This document shows, piece by piece, positions 2,079 to 10,689 of a stretch of 14,669 nt of DNA (position 1 is the first letter of the stretch; each line of letters starts with the position of its first letter). The DNA comes from a virus, in the UHGV virus genome UHGV-0214741, one strand, 5' to 3'. The notes under the pieces are model-generated. The model searched no databases. It saw nothing but the letters and a program-made list of their open reading frames with translations, and was not told the DNA's origin. The position numbers and the translations under genes are program-made.

Positions 2079-2288
2079 ATGCGTGAAATAAATGAAGATC
2101 GCGTAATCCGTGAGGATGAATGTCGTAAGTTAACTGGAGTGTGTCGCACTACACGCTATGAACTGGAGAAAAAAGGGAATTTCCCGTCACGCCGTAATCT
2201 GGGCGGTCGTTCTGTAGGTTGGCTGCTGTCCGAGGTTATGGAATGGGTTAAAAGCCGGGATCGCATTAATTCAGGCAAGGCAGCGTAA
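2079..2288 (+). CDS. alpA: AlpA-family phage transcriptional regulator / excisionase-like DNA-binding protein
   Basis: 69 aa; the segment CRKLTGVCRTTRYELEKKGNFPSRRNLGGRSVGWLLSEVMEWVKSR matches the AlpA (Phage_AlpA) helix-turn-helix pattern. It lies immediately downstream of int, as in P4-like elements and PICIs. Preceded by a roughly 420 bp AT-rich non-coding region. Confidence 0.8.
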   Translation: MREINEDRVIREDECRKLTGVCRTTRYELEKKGNFPSRRNLGGRSVGWLLSEVMEWVKSRDRINSGKAA

Positions 2289-2305
2289 AGGGGAGCATAT
2301 GACAT

Positions 2306-2335
2306 ATAAAACAAAGGCGACCGGGGGCGGTCGCC
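2306..2335 (-). terminator. Candidate rho-independent terminator for the minus-strand small-gene unit
   Basis: Perfect 8 bp stem GGCGACCG / CGGTCGCC with a 4 nt loop at 2316-2335. On the minus strand it is followed by TTTGTTTTAT (complement of 2306-2315). Confidence 0.45.
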
Positions 2336-2402
2336 AATGGATACACACTAAACTTGAACGCATCACCAACAATGCCACATTTGCGGCTGGTGGGCAATGT
2401 GA

Positions 2403-2591
2403 TCAGTCAGATTTGGTTCGTTCCAAGGTTTGCAACGAGAGCTTTTTCCTGTGCTCTTTAAGGAATTTCTCAAGAGCAAAAGCACATGGCGCGAATCTTT
2501 CTGATTCATGCTCTATCTTTCTGCGCCGTCTTTTCCGTGCCGGTGATAATGTTTTGGTCAATTCTTTATCGGTCATTGTGTTGTCCTGCAT
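2403..2591 (-). CDS. Hypothetical small basic protein (about 57-62 aa)
   Basis: ORF downstream of the RHH gene on the minus strand; highly charged (ARKRRRRKIEHESERF). No convincing SD before the first ATG; the second ATG (codon 6, MTDKEL) has AGGA 7 nt upstream. Could be spurious. Confidence 0.3.
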   Translation of the reverse strand: MQDNTMTDKELTKTLSPARKRRRRKIEHESERFAPCAFALEKFLKEHRKKLSLQTLERTKSD

Positions 2592-2633
2592 AGCAATGCG
2601 CCGTAGTTACTCACACCACGGCGCTGGTGATGG

Positions 2634-2813
2634 TTACTCCTGCTCTTTGGCCTTGCGGCGCTGGCGGCGTTTGATCTCGCCTTTAACGGCAGTAACTATA
2701 AATTGCGCCTTGCTTTCACCTTCATCTAAATTTTTTTCTAAGTCTGCAACAACATCATGCGGGAATCTGGCATTTAACTGTTGCGACTTATTATTTGTTG
2801 AACCTGTTGCCAT
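2634..2813 (-). CDS. Ribbon-helix-helix (Arc/MetJ-like) DNA-binding protein, candidate repressor of the replication operon
   Basis: 59 aa starting from the internal ATG at 2813-2811, which has GAGAGGA 8 nt upstream. MATGSTNNKSQQLNARFPHDVVADLEKNLDEGESKAQFIVTAVKGEIKRR fits the RHH beta-strand / helix / helix pattern (compare Arc FNLRWPREVLDLVRKVAEENGRSVNSEIYQRV). Transcribed divergently from the 3004 operon. Confidence 0.55.
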   Translation of the reverse strand: MATGSTNNKSQQLNARFPHDVVADLEKNLDEGESKAQFIVTAVKGEIKRRQRRKAKEQE

Positions 2814-2833
2814 TACTGAATCCTCTCTAAGTT

Positions 2834-2926
2834 GGTGCGATTCAGTATACACAAAAAAAATTTCAGAGAAAGGCTTGAAGTGCGATTCACTTGCTGATAG
2901 GTTAAAAACGAATGGTGCGATGCACC
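2834..2926. promoter_or_regulatory. Divergent promoter/operator region with three GTGCGAT(T/G)CA repeats
   Basis: GGTGCGATTCAG at 2834-2845, AGTGCGATTCAC at 2879-2890, GGTGCGATGCACC at 2914-2926 (the last is a perfect dyad GGTGC-GAT-GCACC). A TATACT -10-like hexamer on the minus strand overlaps the first site. Confidence 0.4.
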
Positions 2927-3003
2927 AAGCAACAACGCCCCGCAGTGGTGGCACACATGCAGGGCGTCTAACCACCAACGATAGCAACAGTATCGAGGCA
3001 GCT

Positions 3004-3207
3004 ATGAGAAATTATACCAGACACCCGCAAGGGCGGGACTCGTACAACCTGAATAAATACATCTGGCGTTTTATCGCCCTGAGCACGGCACAACCGCGCG
3101 TGATTACCATTGAGGCCACCAGCGAACAGGAAGCACGCCAGCAATCCCCGGCTGGCTACGTGATGGTATTCGCCGCCCGTATTCGTCAGGGGGTGTGCCA
3201 TGCCTGA
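3004..3207 (+). CDS. Hypothetical protein, first gene of the replication operon (67 aa)
   Basis: Internal ATG of the 2299-3207 ORF with GAGG 5 nt upstream; the C-terminal 67 aa have normal composition while the upstream 235 codons do not. The stop overlaps the next ATG (ATGCCTGA). Confidence 0.5.
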   Translation: MRNYTRHPQGRDSYNLNKYIWRFIALSTAQPRVITIEATSEQEARQQSPAGYVMVFAARIRQGVCHA

Positions 3208-3520
3208 TATGTCAAATTACCAGTACCTGATTAATCCGCATTTTAACTGTGAGCATGATATTGCTAAAAAGGTTTATTCCGCTGCTGATGGGGCTACTGA
3301 CAATATATCAATGGCTGTTGCGTCAATTGGTAGCCTGATGTGGCATGCGTCAGAAAATGAGGACTATGACGAAAAGGCCATGCGCATTGATATGGGTAAT
3401 ATCGGTTTGTTACTGGCAATGCTTGGGCAGTTTGATATTTCGTTACGGTGCACCATTGAAAATGCCACAGATGCATTAAATGCCATAAAGAAAGCGAATA
3501 CTGATTCAAATCGGGGATAA
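3200..3520 (+). CDS. Hypothetical protein (106 aa)
   Basis: ORF with GGGGG 6 nt upstream of the ATG, translationally coupled to the previous gene. Hand count of one 60-nt line gives about 40 percent G+C, lower than the downstream replication gene. Confidence 0.6.
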   Translation: MPDMSNYQYLINPHFNCEHDIAKKVYSAADGATDNISMAVASIGSLMWHASENEDYDEKAMRIDMGNIGLLLAMLGQFDISLRCTIENATDALNAIKKANTDSNRG

Positions 3521-3526
3521 ATAATC

Positions 3527-3826
3527 ATGAGAACATATTTATCTGGCTTGACTGCCAGCGGTTATGCACACCCCAAAATTATCCCCGGCGCTATTTATCT
3601 GGATAAGAACGGTAACAGAGTAACGGTAAAAGAACTGATGTTTGACCGTGTGTATTTTATTCGTGATGGCTATTCATTTCATAGTTCGCTGAACGTGGAG
3701 ATCTTTATTAGCAGATTCCGGCGGGAAATCCCGACTTCCAGAAATAACCATGTGTCACGTGTGGATGTGGATAAAAAACTGCAGGAACTGAAAAACATGA
3801 TTGCCGCGTGGAGAGAGCCGAAATGA
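3527..3826 (+). CDS. Hypothetical protein (99 aa)
   Basis: ORF with GGGGA 9 nt upstream of the ATG. Its stop TGA (3824-3826) overlaps the replication-protein ATG (3823-3825) as ATGA. Hand-counted lines give about 37-42 percent G+C. Confidence 0.6.
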   Translation: MRTYLSGLTASGYAHPKIIPGAIYLDKNGNRVTVKELMFDRVYFIRDGYSFHSSLNVEIFISRFRREIPTSRNNHVSRVDVDKKLQELKNMIAAWREPK

Positions 3827-5640
3827 AAAAAGCGCCAAATTTAAAACACCAGCCGCGTGACAAAATGACGGAAGTCATCATTTTTGCGGGTAGTGATGCG
3901 TGGGCACATGCGAAGCAGTGGCAGGAACAGGACGGGCGACTGGCTGGCGATAACGTGCCACCTGTCTGGCTTGGAGAGCAACAACTTGCCGAACTGGACA
4001 ACCTGCAAATCGTACCGGACGGACGCTATCGCGTGCGTCTCTACCAGGCGGGGTTATTGCGTCCGGGGCTTGTTAATACCATCGGGCAGAAACTGGCAGC
4101 GGCAGGTGTCAGGGATGCTGATTATTACCCTGAAGGAATGCACAGCCAGAAACGGGAGAACTGGCGCGAATATCTGGAACGTGAACGGGCAGAGCAGGCG
4201 GAAAAGAAAAAGGTAGTTGAACTGCCTGTAAAGAAAAAAGAGCGGGTAAAAGACGATAACGCTTCATCACTGGCGCTTAACCAGATGGGAGCAAGTCAAC
4301 GCGGCGAAGTTCTCCTGGCACATTATGGCGGTGAACTGGCGATTCATGCTGACTCTGACACTGTTCACCATTACAACGGCGTTGTATGGGAGCCAGTACA
4401 GGATAAAGAATTACAGCGAGCTATGGCACAGATTTTCATTGATGCGGAGATCAGCTATTCGCAGAACGCCATTAAATCGGCGGTCGATACCATGAAGTTA
4501 AGTTTGCCTGTTATGGGGAATACAGCCCGTAACCTGATTGGATTCAGTAACGGGGTATTTGATACCAGAACAGGTAATTTTCGGGAGCATAACAAAAACG
4601 ACTGGTTGTTAATTGCCAGTGAATTACCTTTCAGCCCACCAGCAGAGGGGGAAACGCTGGCAACACATGCGCCGAATTTCTGGAAGTGGTTACGCCGTTC
4701 GGTGGCTGAGAATGACCGCAAGGCGGATCGCGTACTGGCTGCATTATTCATGGTGCTGGCGAACCGGTACGACTGGCAGTTATTCATTGAGGTAACAGGT
4801 CCAGGGGGAAGTGGTAAAAGCGTGATGGCGGAGATTTGCACCATGCTGGCGGGTAAGGCCAACACAGTATCGGCAAGCATGAAGGCGCTGGAAGATGCAA
4901 GGGAACGCGCGTTAGTGGTTGGCTTTTCGCTGATTATCATGCCGGATATGACCCGCTACGCTGGTGATGGGGCAGGAATTAAGGCCATTACAGGCGGTGA
5001 CAAGGTGGCAATTGACCCGAAACACAAAGCCCCCTACTCAACGCGTATTCCGGCAGTAGTGCTGGCGGTTAACAATAACGCCATGTCATTCAGTGACCGC
5101 AGCGGGGGGATCTCACGTCGTCGGGTGATATTCAATTTTTCGGAAGTTGTACCGGAGAACGAACGCGATCCAATGCTGGCGGAAAAAATAGAAGGTGAGC
5201 TGGCGGTAGTGATTCGCCATCTGCTTACACGGTTTGCTGACCAGGACGAAGCCAGACGCCTGTTATATGAGCAGCAGAAATCTGAAGAAGCACTGGCGAT
5301 AAAGCGAGAGGGGGATTCGCTGGTGGACTTCTGCGGCTATCTCATGGCGTCGGTAATGTGTGATGGCCTGTTAGTGGGTAATGCTGAAATTGTGCCATTC
5401 AGCCCACGCAGGTATCTCTATCATGCCTATCTGGCTTATATGAGGGCACATGGGTTTGGTAAACCTGTAACACTGACGCGCTTCGGTAAAGATATGCCGG
5501 GGGCAATGGCGGAATATGGCAGGGAGTATATGAAACGGAAAACGAAGCACGGTTTGCGTTCAAACGTGACACTGACGGAGGAATCAGAAGACTGGATGCC
5601 ATCATGTGTATCGGTCACTAATGACGATAGCAAAAATTAA
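3823..5640 (+). CDS. Replication protein, phage/plasmid primase P4-family C-terminal domain with SF3-type NTPase (Walker A GPGGSGKS)
   Basis: The ORF track starts at GTG 3808, but ATG 3823 has GGAGAG upstream and an ATGA overlap with the preceding gene. Walker A VTGPGGSGKSV and a Walker-B-like hhhhPD (LIIMPD) are present. It lies immediately upstream of a TGTTCACC iteron array, as for P4 alpha and its ori. Confidence 0.85.
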   Translation: MKKAPNLKHQPRDKMTEVIIFAGSDAWAHAKQWQEQDGRLAGDNVPPVWLGEQQLAELDNLQIVPDGRYRVRLYQAGLLRPGLVNTIGQKLAAAGVRDADYYPEGMHSQKRENWREYLERERAEQAEKKKVVELPVKKKERVKDDNASSLALNQMGASQRGEVLLAHYGGELAIHADSDTVHHYNGVVWEPVQDKELQRAMAQIFIDAEISYSQNAIKSAVDTMKLSLPVMGNTARNLIGFSNGVFDTRTGNFREHNKNDWLLIASELPFSPPAEGETLATHAPNFWKWLRRSVAENDRKADRVLAALFMVLANRYDWQLFIEVTGPGGSGKSVMAEICTMLAGKANTVSASMKALEDARERALVVGFSLIIMPDMTRYAGDGAGIKAITGGDKVAIDPKHKAPYSTRIPAVVLAVNNNAMSFSDRSGGISRRRVIFNFSEVVPENERDPMLAEKIEGELAVVIRHLLTRFADQDEARRLLYEQQKSEEALAIKREGDSLVDFCGYLMASVMCDGLLVGNAEIVPFSPRRYLYHAYLAYMRAHGFGKPVTLTRFGKDMPGAMAEYGREYMKRKTKHGLRSNVTLTEESEDWMPSCVSVTNDDSKN

Positions 5641-5654
5641 ACTTATGGAATAAC

Positions 5655-5883
5655 TGTTCACCACTGTTCACCCTGTCATAAATATCTTTTGTATCAGTAT
5701 GTTATAGGGTGAACAGTTATTTATGAACTGTTCACCAAACTATTCACTGTTCACCTTTTTGATTGTTTATTGAGCTTCAAGGGTGAACAGTGGTGAACAG
5801 TTGGTGAATAGTTTTTGTGAAACTGTTCACCCCTTAACATTATGAATTAAAAGATAAAATATCAAAAGGTGAACAGGTGAAGG
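5655..5883. promoter_or_regulatory. Replication origin: array of TGTTCACC iterons in both orientations with AT-rich spacers
   Basis: Forward TGTTCACC at 5655, 5665, 5729, 5748, 5824. Reverse GGTGAACA at 5708, 5782, 5792, 5868. Degenerate copies at 5803 (GGTGAATA) and 5876 (GGTGAAGG). Several are at 10 bp phasing. TGTTCACC is the P4 ori/crr type I iteron as I recall it. Confidence 0.7.
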
Positions 5884-5927
5884 GTTAAAACGCAAAAATT
5901 TTAATTTACTGCTGTGAGATAAAGCCT

Positions 5928-6173
5928 ATGACAGCGAAGCACACAAAAAAATCACAATCGCACGCCCTTGATTTGACGGAACACTGGTTAAGGGTGTCGA
6001 TAAAAATCATCGACCGCAACGCCGGGGAAGGATATGCGAAAGCACATCCCGAACTGATTAGCTCATTCATGACAACGGCAGCTGCAAACTTTGCCACGCT
6101 GACAGAACGGGAGATTGCCGAAGCGGAACAGGTGACAACCATCAACGTTAAAACCGGAGAGCAGACAGCATGA
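5928..6173 (+). CDS. Hypothetical protein (81 aa)
   Basis: ORF directly after the ori; its stop overlaps the next ATG (ATGA at 6170-6173). No recognisable motif. Confidence 0.5.
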   Translation: MTAKHTKKSQSHALDLTEHWLRVSIKIIDRNAGEGYAKAHPELISSFMTTAAANFATLTEREIAEAEQVTTINVKTGEQTA

Positions 6174-6595
6174 CAGCACAGATAGCGGCTTACGGGCGGC
6201 TGGTGGCTGACCCGCAGTTAAAGACCACCAGCAAGGGTACACAAATGACGATGGCTAGTATGGCGGTCCCCCTTCCGTGCAGCCAGGCAGATGACGGAAC
6301 GGCGATGATGTGGTTATCCGTCCTGGCGTTTGGCAGACAGGCCGACGCACTGGCAAAACACCACAAAGGCGAACTGGTGAGCGTGGCGGGTAACATGCAG
6401 GTAAGCCAGTGGACAGGCCAGAACGGCGAAACGCGGCAGGGCTGGCAGGTTATCGCAGACAGCGTGATCAGTGCGCGAACAGCGCGACCGGGCGGCAAAA
6501 AAGGCCAGCAGGGGCAGGCCACTGACGCACTGAACAGGGCAAAACAGCAGACGGGTCAGCACGATGATCCGTACGGGGACAACATACCGTTTTAG
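6170..6595 (+). CDS. Single-stranded DNA-binding protein (SSB-like, OB fold, acidic DIPF-type C-terminal tip)
   Basis: 141 aa. GRLVADPQL ... WLSVLAFGRQADALAKHHKGELVSVAGNMQVSQWTGQNGETRQGWQVIAD parallels the E. coli SSB OB-fold pattern. It has a Gly/Gln-rich linker and the C-terminus DDPYGDNIPF (compare the SSB tail DDDIPF). Confidence 0.75.
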   Translation: MTAQIAAYGRLVADPQLKTTSKGTQMTMASMAVPLPCSQADDGTAMMWLSVLAFGRQADALAKHHKGELVSVAGNMQVSQWTGQNGETRQGWQVIADSVISARTARPGGKKGQQGQATDALNRAKQQTGQHDDPYGDNIPF

Positions 6596-6860
6596 CGACA
6601 ACAGAGGGGACATTCCAGTGACATTTGAAGAAGTCCAGCAACATAAAAAGTTTCATGATTTTGATGATCTGGAAACCATGACAGCAAAAAAATATCGCCG
6701 TCTGCTTTCTTCCGATGCGTTGTTTGTTGTGGATCATCATGATTTTCTGCGTAGCTCACTGACCGGGGAAATTTTGGCAACCAACCGTGAGCAGGTGGAA
6801 GCGATGATCGAATATCTGTGGAAAATAAGGCGCAGAATGCGAGATCCCGTGAAACGGTAA
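6564..6860 (+). CDS. Hypothetical protein; true start probably GTG 6618 (about 80 aa)
   Basis: The ORF-track ATG at 6564 overlaps the SSB 3' end. An in-frame GTG at 6618 has AGAGGGGA 8 nt upstream. It ends at TAA 6858-6860, immediately before a terminator. Confidence 0.5.
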   Translation: MIRTGTTYRFSDNRGDIPVTFEEVQQHKKFHDFDDLETMTAKKYRRLLSSDALFVVDHHDFLRSSLTGEILATNREQVEAMIEYLWKIRRRMRDPVKR

Positions 6861-6869
6861 AATAATAAA

Positions 6870-6897
6870 GGCCTGGTAAAATCCAGGCCATTTTTTT
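6870..6897. terminator. Bidirectional rho-independent terminator between convergent genes
   Basis: Stem GGCCTGG (6870-6876), loop TAAAAT, stem CCAGGCC (6883-6889), then TTTTTTT (6891-6897) on the plus strand. The minus strand reads the same hairpin followed by TTTATTATT. Confidence 0.7.
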
Positions 6898-7402
6898 ACA
6901 GTAAGCCTATTAGGGCACTTGCGCCAGCCCCAACAATGCTGGCAACGGTACTGTTTTCCAGTAACTGCTTTAATACTGATTTGGCTTGTACATCCCCCGA
7001 TTTAGCGACTTTTTCAACCAGTTCAGTGATGCTGATGTTTACCAGCATATGGTTATGCTCACCTATCTGCACTTGATCACCACTAATTGAACCAATGTTA
7101 AATGTATTACTTTTAGTTGGCGTCATATGTTCATTTCCCGTGATATTTTCAATATAGAGAGTCAACATATTTGGATGATTGGTTCCCTGTCTGCGGGTTC
7201 CATTGGGAAGCAACTTCATATCTATAATTTTTAGATTTATCTCGTTTTTACCGACACGCTGGATAATGTGTTGACCAATAGTTACTTCCGGTTCATTTGT
7301 ATATGGAATTAATACCTTGTTTTCTTTTGCGTTTCTTTTACCTCTGAATGATTCGCCATTAATTATGAAAGTATCAGGATATACCATTGCGCTTAAATTC
7401 AT
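6896..7402 (-). CDS. Accessory (cargo) gene: 168 aa hypothetical protein with a C-terminal hydrophobic Gly/Ala-rich tail, candidate membrane-anchored effector
   Basis: Only sizeable gene on the opposite strand. It has its own SD (AAGGA 6 nt before the ATG at 7402-7400) and its own terminator. Hand-counted G+C is roughly 32-43 percent over most of the gene versus about 58 percent in the adjacent capsid gene. C-terminus is STVASIVGAGASALIGLL. No motif I recognise in the N-terminal 145 aa. Confidence 0.65.
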   Translation of the reverse strand: MNLSAMVYPDTFIINGESFRGKRNAKENKVLIPYTNEPEVTIGQHIIQRVGKNEINLKIIDMKLLPNGTRRQGTNHPNMLTLYIENITGNEHMTPTKSNTFNIGSISGDQVQIGEHNHMLVNISITELVEKVAKSGDVQAKSVLKQLLENSTVASIVGAGASALIGLL

Positions 7403-7467
7403 GATGCGTCCTTTGTTGTAGTCAGAGACAGCAATAATAGGCCATGGTTTACTTCTTTTGTAAATTA

Positions 7468-7498
7468 TTTGTTCGTGTTCTTTCGTGGTTGTTCGGTC
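7468..7498. repeat. Internal third copy of the TTGTTCG repeat array, in the divergent promoter region between the cargo gene and the capsid operon
   Basis: TTTGTTCGTG (7468-7477), TTCTTTCGTGG (7478-7488), TTGTTCGGTC (7489-7498) at about 10 bp phasing; compare 14401-14431 and 331-370. Candidate minus-strand -35 TTTACA (7464-7459) and -10 TATTAT (7439-7434) lie immediately beside it. Confidence 0.5.
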
Positions 7499-7688
7499 TG
7501 ACTGACAGGTGTTTACATACTGATTTTTATGTATATGTTGGAGCGTGGCACTCAGACGTGAGCCGCCACAATGCCGCCTGACCCCCTGCGCGATGCCGGG
7601 TTGATCTGCGAGATGCCGAGAGTGTCGGGCGGCGCTCCCCCCGTGTTGGTTTCACGTCCTGAATCTTAACCAATACGAGAAAACCTTC

Positions 7689-8858
7689 ATGAAGAAATTA
7701 ATCGAACTCCGCCAGCAAAAAAACGCCCTGAAAAACCAGATGCGATCCCTGCTGGAAAAAGCCGACAGTGAAAACCGTAGTCTGAACGCTGAAGAAGGCA
7801 AACAGTTTGATGAACTGCGTGCAAAAGCTGATGCCCTCGACACAGAAATTTCCCGCCTCGAGTCTGTGGCTGATGAAGAACGCAGCAAGCCAGGAACGGG
7901 CATCCAGAAATTATCATCTGATGAATTGCGTAACTACATCGTAACCGGAGATGTGCGATCACTGTCCACCAGCACTGACAGCGGCAGGGATGGCGGATAT
8001 ACCGTAATTCCTGAGCTTGATCGCGAAGTCATGCGCCAGCTACAGGATGACAGTGTTATGCGCGTGATCGCGACCGTGAAGACCGCAAAATCAAATGAGT
8101 TTCAGAAACTGGTTTCCACTGGCGGCGCAACTGTAGGACGAGGCACAGAAGGCAGCGCACGCAGTGAAACCAACACCCCGAAAATTGAACGCGTAACCAT
8201 CAAGTTGAATCCGATCTACGCCTACCCGAAAACCACGCAGGAAATCCTGGATTTTTCAGAGGTGGATATTCTGGGCTGGTTATCCTCCGAAATTGCCGAC
8301 ACGTTCGCCAGCACCGAAGAGGATGATTTTGTTAATGGCGACGGTAACGGCAAGCCGAAAGGCTTCATGGCTTACACCCGTGCGGCGACCAGTGACAAAA
8401 CCCGCGCTTTTGGCACCATTGAAAAAATAGTAGCGGCAAGTGGAACCGCCATTACAGCGGACGAACTGATCGACATTCTCTACAAGCTGAAAGCGAAATA
8501 CCGCAAAAATGCCGTCTGGGTGATGAACTCGGGCACGGCAGGGACACTACAGAAGCTGAAAAATGAGAACGGCGATTATATCTGGCGCGACAGCCTTAAA
8601 GAAGGTGCGCCGGATATGTTGCTTGGTCGTCCTGTTTACTGCCTGGAGTCCATGCCGGACATCGGCGCAGGAAAAGCACCGCTAGCGGTTGGCGATTTCA
8701 GTCGTGGTTATTTCATCGTTGATCATGTAACAGGGATTCGCACCCGACCGGACAACATTACTGAACCCGGATTCTACAAGGTCCACACGGATAAATATCT
8801 GGGCGGTGGTGTGGTGGATTCAAACGCCATCAAAATTCTGGAAATGAAAGCTGGCTAG
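7689..8858 (+). CDS. Major capsid protein, HK97-type, with an N-terminal coiled-coil (scaffold-like delta) region
   Basis: 389 aa. The N-terminal roughly 70 aa are strongly helical and charged (LIELRQQKNALKNQMRSLLEKADSENRSLNAEEGKQFDELRAKADALDTEISRLE), followed by a body typical of HK97-family capsid proteins. Followed by a prohead protease and portal. Confidence 0.85.
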   Translation: MKKLIELRQQKNALKNQMRSLLEKADSENRSLNAEEGKQFDELRAKADALDTEISRLESVADEERSKPGTGIQKLSSDELRNYIVTGDVRSLSTSTDSGRDGGYTVIPELDREVMRQLQDDSVMRVIATVKTAKSNEFQKLVSTGGATVGRGTEGSARSETNTPKIERVTIKLNPIYAYPKTTQEILDFSEVDILGWLSSEIADTFASTEEDDFVNGDGNGKPKGFMAYTRAATSDKTRAFGTIEKIVAASGTAITADELIDILYKLKAKYRKNAVWVMNSGTAGTLQKLKNENGDYIWRDSLKEGAPDMLLGRPVYCLESMPDIGAGKAPLAVGDFSRGYFIVDHVTGIRTRPDNITEPGFYKVHTDKYLGGGVVDSNAIKILEMKAG

Positions 8859-8870
8859 TCATGAGTAAGG

Positions 8871-8892
8871 AGGAGGCTGCGGCCTCCTTTTT
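8871..8892 (+). terminator. Intra-operon rho-independent terminator/attenuator after the capsid gene
   Basis: AGGAGGC / GCCTCCT stem (8871-8877 / 8882-8888) with TGCG loop, followed by a T-run through 8892. It sits 13 nt after the capsid stop and before the protease SD (GGAG 8902-8905). Confidence 0.6.
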
Positions 8893-8912
8893 CAGCTTTA
8901 TGGAGTACACCG

Positions 8913-9473
8913 ATGAAAAACACCGATTTTGAAATCCGCACATCTGAACTGACCGCCAGCAATAAAAAGCTGGTGGGGTATGCCGTTCGCTGGAACAGCC
9001 TTTCAGAAATTATCTGGGACGAATTCCGCGAACAGTTCACGCCGGGGGCTTTTGCTGACTATCTGGCGACGGGTAATGATGTGCGCTGCCTGTATGAGCA
9101 TGACTATACCCAACTGCTGGGGCGCACCAAATCCGGCACTCTGGTACTGACTGAGGATAACACCGGGTTACGTTTTGAACTGACACCGCCGGATACCCAG
9201 CTTGGAAAAGATGTGCTTACGCTGGTGGAGCGTGGCGACATTACAGGAATGAGCTTTGGTTTTCGCGCATTATGCGAGGAGTGGAGTATCGCGCAAAAAC
9301 CGTATCTGCGTACCGTAACCGCCGCTGAACTCCGTGAAATCACAATAACGTCGATGCCTGCTTATCCAGAATCTGGCGTGGAGATTGCCCACCGTTCGTT
9401 GTTTGCACAGCACCCTGAATTACGTCCGACAGGAAATAATCGTCATCGCTGGTCTGAGCTGGCGGGGTTGTGA
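8913..9473 (+). CDS. Prohead maturation protease, HK97 family
   Basis: 186 aa; GYAVRWNS ... GAFADYL ... VRCLYEHD ... GLRFEL ... GDITGMSFGF matches the HK97 prohead protease pattern as I recall it. Confidence 0.85.
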   Translation: MKNTDFEIRTSELTASNKKLVGYAVRWNSLSEIIWDEFREQFTPGAFADYLATGNDVRCLYEHDYTQLLGRTKSGTLVLTEDNTGLRFELTPPDTQLGKDVLTLVERGDITGMSFGFRALCEEWSIAQKPYLRTVTAAELREITITSMPAYPESGVEIAHRSLFAQHPELRPTGNNRHRWSELAGL

Positions 9474-9474
9474 T

Positions 9475-10689
9475 ATGTGGTGGCCTTTTAGTCGTAAAAA
9501 AAGCGAGCAGCGTAACCTGTCCATTGATGATTTTCTGGCGCTGTCCGGCGTACCGAATACCGGATCCGGAGAATATGTTTCTGCCGGGACGGCTGAATCA
9601 TTGCCTGCAGTGATGAATGCGGTTTCTGTCATCGCTGAGGCGGTGGCCACGATGCCGTGTTATCTGTATCTGGTACGTAATGACAAGGGCAGGGAGGCGC
9701 GGGAATGGCTGGACAGTCACCCAGTAGATATTCTGCTGAATGAGCAGCCTAATTCGTGCCAGACACCTTACCAGTTTAAACGCACAATGATGCGTCACTG
9801 CCTGCTAAACGGTAACGCCTATGCGGTTATTGAGTGGGGGCAGGACGGGCAGCCAAAATCACTTCATCCTTATGCGCCGGGGTGTGTTGTACCGGAACGC
9901 ACAGGCGCACACAAATACCGCTATACCATCACCGAACCCTGTACAGGAACGGTGCGCACGTATTTACAGGAAGAAGTTTTGCATCTCCGCTATGCCTCGG
10001 ATGATGGCTTTCTGGGGCGTTCCCCCGTCACGATTTGCCGTGAGGCGCTGGGGCTTGGCCTTGCTCAACAGCGTCACGGAGCCAGCATTATGAAAGATGG
10101 CATGATGGCGGCAGGGATTATCACGTCAGGCGAATGGCTGGACGGCGTGAAAGGTAAACAGGCATTGGATGCTCTGGAACGCTACAAGGGGGCGAAAAAT
10201 GCCGGAAAAACGCCAATCCTTGAAGGGGGCATGGATTACAGGCAACTGGGAATGAGTAACCAGGATGCGGAATGGCTGGCCTCCCGTCGCTTCTCCATTG
10301 AAGACATCGCCCGCATGTTCAACGTATCGCCTATTTTTCTGCAGGAATACAGCAACAGCACCTACAGCAATTTCAGCGAGGCAAGCCGCGCGTTTCTGAC
10401 CATGACAATGCGCCCGTGGCTGGCGAACTTCGAACAGCAAATCAAGGCCGCTTTGCTGGTGGCTTCTCCCGTACCTGGTACCCGTTATCTGGTTGAGTTT
10501 GATTCAGCCGATTTATTACGCGCCACACCCACCGAACGTTATGCCACGTATGAGAAAGGGATTAAGAACGGGATCATGAATCCGAACGAAGCCCGTGAGC
10601 GTGAGGGTATGCCGCCGCGTGAAGGTGGTGATGAGTTCAGCCAGGCATGGAAACAGACTGTGGAAATTAAAGGGAGAAAAGATGAGTGA
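9475..10689 (+). CDS. Portal protein, HK97 family
   Basis: The ORF track starts at 9385 inside the protease gene. ATG 9475 (MWWPFSRKK...) begins 1 nt after the protease stop and is the more likely start. About 404 aa, with length and position typical of HK97-type portals. Confidence 0.85.
   Translation: MWWPFSRKKSEQRNLSIDDFLALSGVPNTGSGEYVSAGTAESLPAVMNAVSVIAEAVATMPCYLYLVRNDKGREAREWLDSHPVDILLNEQPNSCQTPYQFKRTMMRHCLLNGNAYAVIEWGQDGQPKSLHPYAPGCVVPERTGAHKYRYTITEPCTGTVRTYLQEEVLHLRYASDDGFLGRSPVTICREALGLGLAQQRHGASIMKDGMMAAGIITSGEWLDGVKGKQALDALERYKGAKNAGKTPILEGGMDYRQLGMSNQDAEWLASRRFSIEDIARMFNVSPIFLQEYSNSTYSNFSEASRAFLTMTMRPWLANFEQQIKAALLVASPVPGTRYLVEFDSADLLRATPTERYATYEKGIKNGIMNPNEAREREGMPPREGGDEFSQAWKQTVEIKGRKDE

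What the first reader, a model, noticed from the sequence alone, without database searches (positions are those of the whole stretch)
3200..3826. Low-GC pair of small ORFs at the head of the replication operon
Two translationally coupled ORFs (106 aa and 99 aa) sit between a 67 aa ORF and the replication gene. Lines I hand-counted in this stretch are about 37-42 percent G+C, clearly below the replication gene downstream (about 58 percent in the line I counted). Neither has a motif I recognise. In satellites, small early genes in this position often encode helper-interference or derepression functions, so these are candidates for such a role or for a small two-gene accessory module.
Basis: partly seen in the sequence, partly recalled or inferred. 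Interest (0 to 1): 0.45.

Follow-up and report, generated by a model that had tools for sequence, protein, structure and literature searches.

The report
Satellite early genes: RgdR-like plus unknown
The two small genes are real, conserved early genes of an E. coli phage satellite: the second belongs to the known RgdR/DUF4222 family of small DNA-binding regulators, which sits directly in front of replication-initiator genes of many kinds, and the first belongs to an uncharacterised family of small acidic proteins that fills a swappable slot.

Summary
The window is a capsid-forming PICI-type satellite of E. coli. It encodes int, alpA, Icd-like, ORF1, ORF2, primase-helicase, an iteron ori, SSB, and then capsid, portal and terminase genes.

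Both ORFs exist as described. They are tightly coupled to their neighbours and are under purifying selection (dN/dS about 0.2). It recurs at this position in most related elements.

ORF2 does have a recognisable identity. It is a DUF4222 protein (E=7e-17), 31% identical over its full length to RgdR. RgdR is a 99-aa DNA-binding regulator of type III secretion and motility, and it occupies the same position in the O157:H7 satellite OI-51. ORF2 lacks the RGD motif.

In almost every locus I examined, DUF4222 overlaps the start of a replication-initiator gene. Five initiator architectures are involved, one of them in a true phage. The ori iterons follow the replicase, not DUF4222.

ORF1 belongs to a small Enterobacterales family of about 100-aa acidic helical proteins, often mislabelled 'ubiquinol-cytochrome C reductase'. 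It is one of several unrelated families that fill a variable slot.

I found no evidence for helper interference or derepression. The layout is known; only the functional reading is partly new.

The parts
3004..3207 (+). Icd-like gene (67 aa). It is the first gene of the co-directional block, and its stop overlaps the ORF1 start by 8 nt.
   Evidence: NCBIfam NF033153 phage_ICD_like E=1.2e-19. RefSeq names it 'host cell division inhibitor Icd-like protein'. Nucleotide homology to many other islands ends at about 3202-3208.
3189..3193 (+). G5 run that serves as a Shine-Dalgarno-like element for ORF1. Loss of one G fuses Icd-like and ORF1 in frame.
   Evidence: Sequence read. The fusion proteins P0002 (36 member sequences), P0001 and P0057 read '...RIRQGCAMPDMSNY...', which is exactly the -1 G product.
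3200..3520 (+). ORF1: a 106-aa acidic protein (pI 4.6) predicted to form a helical hairpin. It belongs to an uncharacterised Enterobacterales family with the core motif sIGsLMfwA..nE-Y..DM-nIG-L.
   Evidence: No Pfam, NCBIfam or PADLOC hit. It matches phrog_15327, of unknown function. An exhaustive HMM search found only 22 representatives among 1.84 billion, and a profile search found 133 proteins. The AF2 model has pLDDT 63.7 with two long helices, and neither fold nor sequence search found a solved relative. dN/dS is about 0.2.
3527..3826 (+). ORF2: a 99-aa basic protein (pI 10.0) of the DUF4222/RgdR family, with P-G-A at residues 20-22 in place of RGD.
   Evidence: PF13973 E=7e-17. It is 31% identical to RgdR (ECs1581) over all 99 residues, E=1e-13, and RgdR itself scores PF13973 E=2e-23. 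It occupies the same position as rgdR in Sakai Sp7. The AF2 model has pLDDT 58.8, with four short strands and a C-terminal helix. dN/dS is about 0.16.
3823..5640 (+). Primase-helicase (605 aa). Its ATG overlaps the ORF2 stop as ATGA. The first 125-140 aa or so form an N-terminal domain shared with other satellite replicase types.
   Evidence: Pfam D5_N, DUF5906 and Pox_D5. The RefSeq start is given. The mosaic breakpoint lies at about 4211-4243.
5641..5927 (.). Replication origin: 33% G+C, with nine copies of the iteron GGTGAACAG in both orientations.
   Evidence: The iteron type follows the replicase module, not the DUF4222 type.
2079..2288 (+). alpA, the helper-induced activator of the satellite cycle in E. 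coli PICIs. It lies upstream of the block.
   Evidence: Pfam Phage_AlpA E=3e-16. Its function is taken from PMC6092414.

Best explanation
**What it is.** ORF1 and ORF2 are two translationally coupled early genes of a capsid-forming PICI-type satellite. They lie in the block Icd-like > ORF1 > ORF2 > primase-helicase > ori. This block is expressed when the helper phage turns on AlpA.

**ORF2.** ORF2 is a divergent member of the RgdR/DUF4222 family. These are small basic proteins, predicted here to form a small beta unit followed by a C-terminal helix. The studied member, RgdR, binds DNA without sequence specificity and changes transcription of host loci. I infer that the family's native job belongs to the replication module. 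The protein is co-translated with whatever initiator follows it. It acts on something common to all these elements, either DNA in general or a host nucleoid or replisome factor. It does not recognise the origin. Its known effects on virulence genes would then be a by-product.

**ORF1.** ORF1 is one of several unrelated small acidic helical proteins that fill a variable, low-G+C slot between the Icd-like gene and DUF4222. I infer that it works by binding another protein, and that it is an exchangeable accessory and not a core replication component.

**Shown and inferred.**
- Shown here: gene reality, coupling, family membership, positional conservation, and the independence of iteron type from DUF4222 type.
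- Shown elsewhere, and only for RgdR itself: the DNA-binding and regulatory activity.
- Inferred: the replication-linked role of ORF2 and the protein-binding role of ORF1.
For: **Satellite identity.**

**Coupling and a single transcription unit.**

**Purifying selection on both ORFs.**

**ORF2 belongs to DUF4222 and is homologous to RgdR over its full length.**. RgdR's properties are taken from PMC3378721: 99 aa, pI about 10, non-specific DNA binding in EMSA, LEE1 activation, motility repression and Congo-red binding. [quoted passage not shown]

**DUF4222 directly precedes replication initiators of five architectures, usually with a 4-nt overlap.**
- N-domain plus D5_N/DUF5906/Pox_D5: window, L003, L010, L027, L033.
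- N-domain plus DUF927: Sakai, L016, L028, L031.
- N-domain plus AAA_25 RepA-type helicase: L014, L019.
- Zn-ribbon/Toprim/DUF927 primase: L011.
- An HTH_36 O-like initiator in Klebsiella phage ST101-KPC2phi6.3.
- Sources.

**The iterons follow the replicase.** The same iteron occurs with different DUF4222 types (window and L033). The same DUF4222 type occurs with different iterons (window and L028).

**ORF1 sits in a variable slot.**
- The slot holds at least four mutually unrelated families, all acidic with pI 4.2-5.1.
- Relatives of ORF1 occupy the same slot in Klebsiella, Hafnia, Serratia and Citrobacter satellites.
- One relative is the first gene after the CI-like repressor in a Yersinia prophage.

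**Cassette boundaries.**
Against: - No experiment links any DUF4222 protein to replication. The association rests on gene position alone.
- Hafnia, Serratia and related satellites use the same primase type without DUF4222. They carry an unrelated basic protein of 112-122 aa in that place, so DUF4222 is not indispensable.
- In one locus a DUF5375-like gene sits between DUF4222 and the primase.
- ORF2 is only 31% identical to RgdR and lacks the RGD motif, whose residue 20 matters for RgdR activity. RgdR's activities may therefore not transfer to ORF2.
- Both structure models are low-confidence (pLDDT 59 and 64). The fold searches gave no significant match.
- For ORF1 there is no functional evidence of any kind.
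Confidence: 0.5

Rival explanations
1. One or both ORFs act on the helper phage, either interfering with it or derepressing a helper prophage, as epsilon does in satellite P4.
For: - In P4 the helper-derepression gene epsilon lies in the same operon, upstream of the alpha primase gene.
- The slot that holds ORF1 is highly variable between otherwise similar elements and is low in G+C. This is typical of genes under diversifying pressure or frequent exchange.
- An ORF1 relative is the first early-left gene of a Yersinia lambdoid prophage, so the family is used early in infection.
Against: - Neither ORF resembles any P4 protein or any sequenced phage protein.
- Neither hits a defence model.
- In E. 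coli PICIs the helper induces the satellite through alpA, not the reverse (PMC6092414).
- This element makes its own capsids and packaging machinery. According to the cf-PICI paper, that is how such satellites exploit the helper (10.1101/2022.09.08.507074).
- ORF2's family is fixed to the initiator gene rather than to any helper type.
Confidence: 0.12
2. ORF2 is simply an accessory virulence regulator carried as cargo, as RgdR is usually described. Its position next to the primase has no functional meaning.
For: - RgdR and its CFT073 orthologue activate LEE1 and type III secretion and repress motility when expressed in trans.
- Deleting OI-51 lowers sheep colonisation (PMC3378721).
- PMC6092414 lists RgdR among accessory virulence genes.
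Against: - The family is present in strains without a LEE (PMC3378721).
- It is present in other genera.
- It is present in a Klebsiella phage.
- It is almost always overlapped with the initiator start codon, across five initiator architectures. That is not how cargo genes are usually placed.
- ORF2 lacks the RGD motif.
Confidence: 0.2
3. ORF2 acts mainly as a translated leader. Its translation, not its product, is what matters, because it delivers ribosomes to the primase start. This would resemble the leader peptides of some plasmid rep genes.
For: The ATGA overlap with the initiator start is conserved in nearly every locus.
Against: - The protein sequence is under purifying selection (dN/dS about 0.16).
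- It forms a Pfam family conserved across genera.
- RgdR acts in trans from a plasmid (PMC3378721).
Confidence: 0.05
4. ORF1 (acidic) and ORF2 (basic) form a toxin-antitoxin-like or inhibitor-target pair, in which ORF1 neutralises the DNA-binding protein.
For: - Two small adjacent coupled genes have opposite charge: pI 4.6 and 10.0.
- An acidic protein precedes DUF4222 in every satellite examined.
- The ORF1-ORF2 pair is co-inherited in E. coli and Citrobacter.
Against: - Neither ORF hits a toxin-antitoxin or defence family.
- RgdR expressed alone is functional and was not reported to be toxic (PMC3378721).
- The acidic partners are unrelated to one another.
- ORF1 relatives occur without DUF4222.
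Confidence: 0.1

Closest known systems
RgdR (ECs1581) of E. coli O157:H7 O-island 51 / CP-933C / Sp7, which is the capsid-forming satellite EcCIEDL933
   Same: - Same Pfam family (DUF4222).
- Same length (99 aa) and the same basic charge.
- Alignable end to end.
- Same position immediately upstream of the satellite replicase, overlapping its start.
- Same kind of element: int, alpA, Icd-like, small ORFs, DUF4222, replicase, SSB and a head module.
   Different: - Only 31% identical, whereas the orthologues discussed in PMC3378721 are above 77%.
- P-G-A replaces R-G-D at residues 20-22.
- It is preceded by one ORF of a different family instead of three small ORFs.
- It is followed by a D5-type replicase, not a DUF927-type.
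- Activity on LEE and motility is untested for this variant.
Phage P4 left operon: epsilon, ORF151, ORF106 (DUF5375), alpha
   Same: Small genes are co-transcribed directly upstream of the satellite's primase-helicase gene. In P4 these include a helper-directed factor and a small ORF next to the primase.
   Different: - No sequence or profile similarity to ORF1 or ORF2.
- One satellite locus has both DUF4222 and a faint DUF5375 hit, so the two are not equivalents.
- That P4 ORF106 is the Cnr copy-number regulator is my recollection. I did not check it here.
Phage- or island-encoded modulators of nucleoid proteins (T4 MotB, T7 gp5.5, LUZ24 gp4, H-NST, EnrR)
   Same: These are small early proteins of mobile elements. 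Some bind DNA non-specifically, and some relieve H-NS silencing, including silencing of the LEE (abstracts listed). The phenotypes reported for RgdR are LEE1 up, motility down and Congo-red binding up. From general knowledge, these are the directions expected when H-NS silencing is weakened.
   Different: - No sequence relationship was tested or expected.
- H-NS was not examined in the RgdR study.
- This is a functional analogy only.

Membership tests
DUF4222 / RgdR family (PF13973) | Significant match to the PF13973 profile above the gathering score | tested here: met
   ORF2 scores 61.1 bits against a cut-off of 27, E=7e-17, covering profile positions 1-52 of 53. RgdR scores 82 bits.
DUF4222 / RgdR family (PF13973) | Full-length homology to the founding member RgdR (ECs1581) | tested here: met
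   BLASTP gives 31% identity over residues 1-99 of both proteins with no gaps, E=1e-13.
DUF4222 / RgdR family (PF13973) | RGD tripeptide at residues 20-22, the motif that gave RgdR its name and is tied to activity | tested here: not met
   ORF2 has P20-G21-A22. P20 is invariant in its 13 close relatives, and Citrobacter relatives have PGD. This motif defines the EHEC RgdR subgroup, not the Pfam family.
DUF4222 / RgdR family (PF13973) | Non-specific DNA binding and activation of LEE1 or repression of motility | not testable with these tools
   Reported only for RgdR and its CFT073 orthologue (PMC3378721). ORF2 would need EMSA and reporter assays.
DUF4222 / RgdR family (PF13973) | Gene lies immediately upstream of the element's replication-initiator gene (my working criterion, derived from the loci compared here) | tested here: met
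   The ATGA overlap lies at 3823-3826. The same arrangement holds in Sakai, L003, L010, L011, L014-L019, L027, L028, L030-L033 and phage L035.
Capsid-forming PICI (cf-PICI) | int, alpA and a PICI-type replicase, plus its own major capsid, protease, portal, connector, and small and large terminase genes, with no tail or lysis genes, in about 10-15 kb | tested here: met
   Pfam hits. The window is 14.7 kb. A 97-98% identical island lies in E. coli chromosomes. The definition is taken from 10.1101/2022.09.08.507074. Induction and transfer by a helper were not tested.
ORF1 family (unnamed; phrog_15327 and relatives) | Protein of about 95-106 aa with the conserved core G-x-S-x-IG-x-LM-F/W-x-A ... 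E-x-Y ... D-M-x-x-IG | tested here: met
   See alignment A3. hmmsearch with A3 scores ORF1 at E=1.6e-40 and the Klebsiella, Hafnia and Citrobacter slot proteins at 1e-20 to 1e-42.
Ubiquinol-cytochrome c reductase (the name given to many ORF1 relatives in public records) | Match to any cytochrome bc1 subunit family | tested here: not met
   None of 12 family members has a Pfam hit at E up to 1 to such a family. Six named members have no NCBIfam hit of that kind. The name appears to be unsupported.
P4 helper-derepression protein epsilon, or P4 ORF106 (DUF5375) | Sequence or profile similarity | tested here: not met
   tblastn of both ORFs against the phage collection, which holds P4, found nothing. 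ORF1 against ORF106 gave no alignment. The DUF4222 profile against ORF106 gave probability 0.1%.

The most novel reading that the evidence does not exclude
DUF4222/RgdR proteins may be general helpers of replication initiation for mobile elements, and not virulence regulators. In this reading they are made in step with the initiator and clear or remodel host nucleoid proteins such as H-NS from the AT-rich origin and early region. This would explain three things: why the family is welded to five unrelated initiator types, why it ignores iteron sequence, and why RgdR overexpression switches on H-NS-silenced loci such as LEE1 while lowering motility. The acidic slot proteins such as ORF1 would be exchangeable modulators of this step or of the helper or host.
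Probability: 0.2. Interest if true: 0.6.

Novelty: new member of a known kind. Interest (0 to 1): 0.35.

Why it matters
About 9% of complete E. coli genomes carry this exact cassette, and about a third carry a related Icd-like/DUF4222/replicase block. RgdR is cited as a virulence regulator of EHEC. If its family is really part of the replication module of satellites and some phages, then its effects on the LEE and on motility are side effects of satellite biology. They would be expected to rise when a helper phage induces the island.

The work also flags three practical points:
- A propagated misannotation ('ubiquinol-cytochrome C reductase') on ORF1 relatives.
- An unannotated DUF4222 gene in a deposited phage genome.
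- A shared N-terminal domain of satellite replicases that has no family assignment.

Tried and rejected
**Searches that found nothing for ORF1.**
- Pfam, NCBIfam and PADLOC gave no hits.

**Structure.**
- AlphaFold models of both proteins were low-confidence: pLDDT 63.7 and 58.8, from shallow alignments.
- Foldseek against the PDB gave no significant hit. ORF2's best match was E=0.15 among generic small beta-barrels. ORF1's best was E=1.3 among generic helical hairpins. I draw no functional conclusion from them.
- Profile searches of both families against PDB sequences found nothing below E=0.25.
- I left the third fold search unused, because the models are too weak for it to be meaningful.

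**Other negative searches.**
- tblastn of ORF1, ORF2, a Yersinia ORF1 relative and a short Klebsiella DUF4222 against 50,697 phage records found nothing. Only RgdR found three borderline hits.
- The degenerate-pattern scan of species-representative genomes recovered just three DUF4222 loci, so I could not make an unbiased census of DUF4222 neighbours.
- Rfam found no RNA family anywhere in the window.
- Promoter-like matches were fewer than in shuffled sequence, so the operon's promoter is not located.

**Ideas tested and rejected.**
- That DUF4222 sets origin specificity: the iterons follow the replicase.
- That the different acidic slot proteins are one divergent superfamily: hhalign probabilities were at most 1.2%.
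- That ORF1 or ORF2 relate to P4 ORF106.
- That DUF4222 type co-varies strictly with the type of replicase N-domain: it does not.
- A toxin-antitoxin reading, which I considered and rated low.
Full report
**1. What the window is**

The window is a phage satellite of the capsid-forming PICI type. On the + strand it encodes:
- a tyrosine integrase (412-1659) and AlpA (2079-2288);
- an Icd-like protein (3004-3207), then the two ORFs in question;
- a D5_N/DUF5906/Pox_D5 primase-helicase;
- SSB, and then major capsid, prohead protease, portal, head-tail connector, HNH, and small and large terminase genes.

Two small genes lie on the reverse strand between alpA and the Icd-like gene. One of them is a YlcI/YnfO family member.

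An origin with nine GGTGAACAG iterons lies just after the primase, at 5641-5927.

Islands 97-98% identical over the whole window occur in E. coli chromosomes. An island identical over 2900-4100, but with a different downstream part, sits between cspD/yljB and clpS in strain KGu016.

This layout matches the description of cf-PICIs such as EcCIEDL933 (10.1101/2022.09.08.507074).

**2. Checking the observation**

Reading the sequence shows three things:
- The Icd-like stop overlaps the ORF1 ATG by 8 nt.
- Six bases separate the ORF1 stop from the ORF2 ATG.
- The ORF2 stop overlaps the primase ATG as ATGA at 3823-3826. The primase therefore starts at 3823, as RefSeq annotates it, not at the GTG at 3808.

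Each start has a G-rich Shine-Dalgarno-like element 5-9 nt upstream. No terminator-like site lies on the + strand between 3004 and 5640.

*Reality of the genes.* Both are real genes. Against relatives in Citrobacter freundii and a metagenome:
- ORF1 has dS about 1.0 and dN about 0.22.
- ORF2 has dS about 0.4 and dN about 0.065.
- Most differences fall at third codon positions.

*Composition.* The claim holds only in weaker form.

| Stretch | G+C |
|---|---|
| ORF1 | 41.1% |
| ORF2 | 43.3% |
| Region 3200-3826 | 41.9% |
| Whole window | 49.2% |
| Whole primase | 51.2% |

- The region ranks at the 10th percentile of same-size windows, and three other stretches are lower.
- The dip is not peculiar to this window. 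In the eight E. coli and C. freundii elements compared, the slot between Icd-like and DUF4222 is 37-46% G+C, between flanks of 50-56%. It is absent in the Klebsiella and Buttiauxella loci.

**3. ORF2 is a member of the RgdR family**

ORF2 matches Pfam DUF4222 (E=7e-17). RefSeq names the identical protein 'DUF4222 domain-containing protein'.

A literature search for DUF4222 led to RgdR. What is known about RgdR comes from PMC3378721:
- It is the 99-aa, pI-10 product of ecs1581 in O-island 51 (CP-933C, Sp7) of E. coli O157:H7.
- It activates the LEE1 promoter and type III secretion, represses motility and increases Congo-red binding.
- It binds DNA without specificity in gel shifts.
- A natural variant from strain ED1a, with CGD in place of RGD at residues 20-22, neither binds DNA nor activates secretion.

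OI-51 is the satellite later named EcCIEDL933. [quoted passage not shown]

I fetched the Sakai island. There, rgdR lies directly upstream of the replicase with the same 4-nt overlap. RgdR itself scores as DUF4222 (E=2e-23).

ORF2 and RgdR align over all 99 residues without gaps at 31% identity (E=1e-13). ORF2 is therefore a distant member of the family, in the same place in the same kind of element. It is not a close orthologue.
- It has PGA in place of RGD, and that proline is invariant among its close relatives.
- It keeps K35, another residue that affected RgdR activity.
- Whether it shares RgdR's activities cannot be told from sequence.

The AlphaFold model is weak (pLDDT 58.8). It shows four short strands followed by helices. 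Fold and sequence searches against solved structures gave nothing significant.

**4. DUF4222 is tied to the replication-initiator gene**

In E. coli the general layout is: Icd-like, then one to three small ORFs, then DUF4222, then a replicase whose start overlaps the DUF4222 stop. The replicase is annotated in four ways: DNA primase family, DUF927, primase-like DNA-binding, and RepA helicase.

By domain content, DUF4222 precedes five initiator architectures:

| Initiator architecture | Loci |
|---|---|
| Shared N-domain + D5_N/DUF5906/Pox_D5 | window, L003, L010, L027, L033 |
| Shared N-domain + DUF927 | Sakai, L016, L028, L031 |
| Shared N-domain + AAA_25 (RepA-type helicase) | L014, L019 |
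| Zn-ribbon/Toprim/DUF927 primase | L011 (Citrobacter youngae) |
| HTH_36 O-like initiator | L035 (Klebsiella phage ST101-KPC2phi6.3) |

- The shared N-terminal domain is about 125-140 aa and has no Pfam family.
- In the phage, an unannotated 59-aa DUF4222 ORF (E=8e-19) overlaps the start of the initiator.

Loci found by a DUF4222 pattern alone, in Buttiauxella, Citrobacter and Apirhabdus, show the same adjacency. In Apirhabdus the primase is fragmented.

There are exceptions:
- One locus has a gene with a faint DUF5375 hit between DUF4222 and the primase.
- Hafnia, Serratia and related satellites have an unrelated basic protein of 112-122 aa in the DUF4222 position.

I then asked whether DUF4222 might set origin specificity. 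It does not.
- The window and L033 share GGTGAACAG iterons and a D5-type primase, but their DUF4222 proteins differ.
- L028 has an ORF2-type DUF4222 (91% identical) with a DUF927 replicase. It carries the TGCGGGTTA-type iterons seen in Sakai, which has RgdR with DUF927.

So whatever DUF4222 acts on must be common to elements with unrelated initiators and unrelated iterons. That fits the non-specific DNA binding reported for RgdR.

**5. ORF1**

ORF1 has no Pfam, NCBIfam or PADLOC match. Its only family hit is a PHROG of unknown function.

An exhaustive HMM search of 1.84 billion representative proteins found just 22 relatives. A profile built from the distant ones retrieved 133 proteins of 95-106 aa from Klebsiella, Yersinia, Serratia, Hafnia, Raoultella and others. 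They share the core sIGsLMfwA..nE-Y..DM-nIG-L.

Many carry the name 'ubiquinol-cytochrome C reductase'. No Pfam or NCBIfam model supports that name.

The protein is acidic (pI 4.6). A low-confidence model predicts two long helices, with no significant structural match.

Context was informative. In seven of eight distinct contexts the relative sits in the same slot of a satellite, upstream of a primase:
- Klebsiella, two kinds of element;
- Hafnia;
- Serratia;
- an unnamed metagenomic element;
- Citrobacter youngae;
- the window's own E. coli/C. freundii type.

In the eighth context, a Yersinia lambdoid prophage, it is the first gene after the CI-like repressor in the leftward early operon.

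In other E. coli satellites the slot is filled by other small acidic helical proteins (pI 4.2-5.1). They belong to at least three further families, with no detectable relation to ORF1 or to each other.

**6. Are ORF1 and ORF2 a two-gene module?**

Within the window's own clade, yes, in the sense of linkage.
- Homology to elements with other cassettes stops at about 3202-3208 and resumes at about 3782-3821.
- The pair stays together in C. freundii and in a metagenomic relative. It also stays together upstream of a different replicase type.
- With L028 the co-inherited block runs from 3166 to 4243. It takes the replicase N-domain with it.

Across the two families, no.
- Half of the ORF1-family contexts lack DUF4222.
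- Most DUF4222 genes have other neighbours.

A one-base deletion in the G5 run at the Icd/ORF1 junction gives in-frame Icd::ORF1 fusion proteins. These are on record, in one case with 36 member sequences. They could be real variants or homopolymer sequencing errors.

**7. Mechanism**

Shown:
- The genes are real.
- They are coupled to their neighbours.
- They belong to the families named above.
- They occupy conserved positions.
- DUF4222 is independent of iteron type.

Shown elsewhere for RgdR only: non-specific DNA binding and effects on host transcription.

Inferred:
- ORF2 is produced in step with the primase when AlpA turns on the island.
- It acts as a general DNA-associated cofactor of the replication module. 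The virulence-gene effects of RgdR would be a by-product.
- ORF1 is an exchangeable accessory that probably acts by binding a protein.

A more specific idea is that DUF4222 proteins counteract nucleoid silencing.
- RgdR's three phenotypes go in the direction I would expect from weakened H-NS silencing. This rests on general knowledge of H-NS control of LEE1, flagella and curli.
- The origins here are AT-rich, at 26-45% G+C.
- Small H-NS-directed proteins of phages and islands are known.
- The RgdR study did not examine H-NS.

I rate this idea at about 0.2.

**8. Rivals**

- *Helper interference or derepression.* This remains possible for ORF1, on the grounds of slot variability and the P4 analogy. 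It has no positive support.
- *Pure cargo regulator.* This is the published view of RgdR. It does not explain the fixed overlap with initiators in elements and hosts that lack a LEE.
- *Translated leader only.* Purifying selection and RgdR's activity in trans argue against it.
- *Acid-base inhibitor pair.* This is suggested by the charges, but the facultative association and the diversity of acidic partners argue against it.

**9. Novelty and verdict**

The layout, and the presence of RgdR-family genes in E. coli PICIs, are already published. ORF2 is a new and divergent member of a known family. ORF1 is a member of an unstudied family.

I did not find the following points in the papers I searched:
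- DUF4222 overlaps the start of initiators of five architectures, including one in a true phage.
- Iteron type is independent of DUF4222 type.
- The ORF1-ORF2 cassette has sharp boundaries.

These points are worth a modest follow-up. Its composition figures are overstated, and its functional guess is unsupported.

Noticed in passing
window 6896-7402 (- strand): A 168-aa reverse-strand gene is the lowest-G+C gene in the window (37.9%). It lies between the replication and packaging modules. It matches phrog_5789 (unknown function). It has a sub-threshold Pfam RHIM hit at 'VQIGEHN' (residues 110-119) and a hydrophobic C-terminal tail, and no PADLOC hit. It could be an accessory or defence-type cargo gene.
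   Followed up: partly
window 2299-3207 (+ strand): A stop-free 302-codon frame runs antisense across two reverse-strand genes (2403-2576, and YlcI/YnfO at 2634-2813) and ends as the Icd-like gene. Gene callers in other records call long proteins here: 324, 317, 386 and 429 aa, the last with a Phage_ASH hit. It is unclear which strand is expressed.
   Followed up: no
window 3189-3193: Loss of one G from this G5 run fuses the Icd-like gene and ORF1 in frame. Such fusion proteins are on record (P0002 with 36 member sequences, P0001, P0057). They could be real variants or homopolymer sequencing errors.
   Followed up: partly
window 3823-4243; also L002, L014-L019, L003, L008, L010: An N-terminal domain of about 125-140 aa (MKxAPNxKxQPRDKxTEVIIFAGSDAW...) is shared by satellite replicases whose remaining parts differ: D5-type primase-helicase, DUF927, or AAA_25 RepA-type helicase. 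It has no Pfam hit. A recombination breakpoint lies at its end.
   Followed up: partly
window 5641-5927: This is the replication origin, with nine GGTGAACAG iterons in both orientations at 33% G+C. DUF927-type relatives carry 11 TGCGGGTTA-type iterons instead.
   Followed up: yes
L003/L004 (Klebsiella), 3258-9532: This satellite carries an ORF1 relative and a short DUF4222. It is inserted between prophage capsid genes and tail genes, apparently inside a helper prophage. That matches the helper-embedded PICIs described in PMC10111431.
   Followed up: partly
L035 (Klebsiella phage ST101-KPC2phi6.3, MK416017) 3480-4617: An unannotated 59-aa DUF4222 ORF overlaps the start of a 322-aa HTH_36 initiator ORF. 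The record instead annotates a reverse-strand CDS there and a truncated 'replication protein O'.
   Followed up: yes
P0077, P0081, P0086, P0090 and many others: ORF1 relatives in Klebsiella, Serratia, Raoultella and E. coli are named 'ubiquinol-cytochrome C reductase' in NCBI and UniRef records. No profile supports this name, so it is probably a propagated misannotation.
   Followed up: yes
L020/L021 6783-10237: One satellite has DUF4222 (73 aa), then a 190-aa protein with a faint DUF5375 hit (the family of P4 ORF106), then a Zn-ribbon/Toprim/DUF927 primase. The two kinds of small 'pre-primase' gene can therefore coexist.
   Followed up: no
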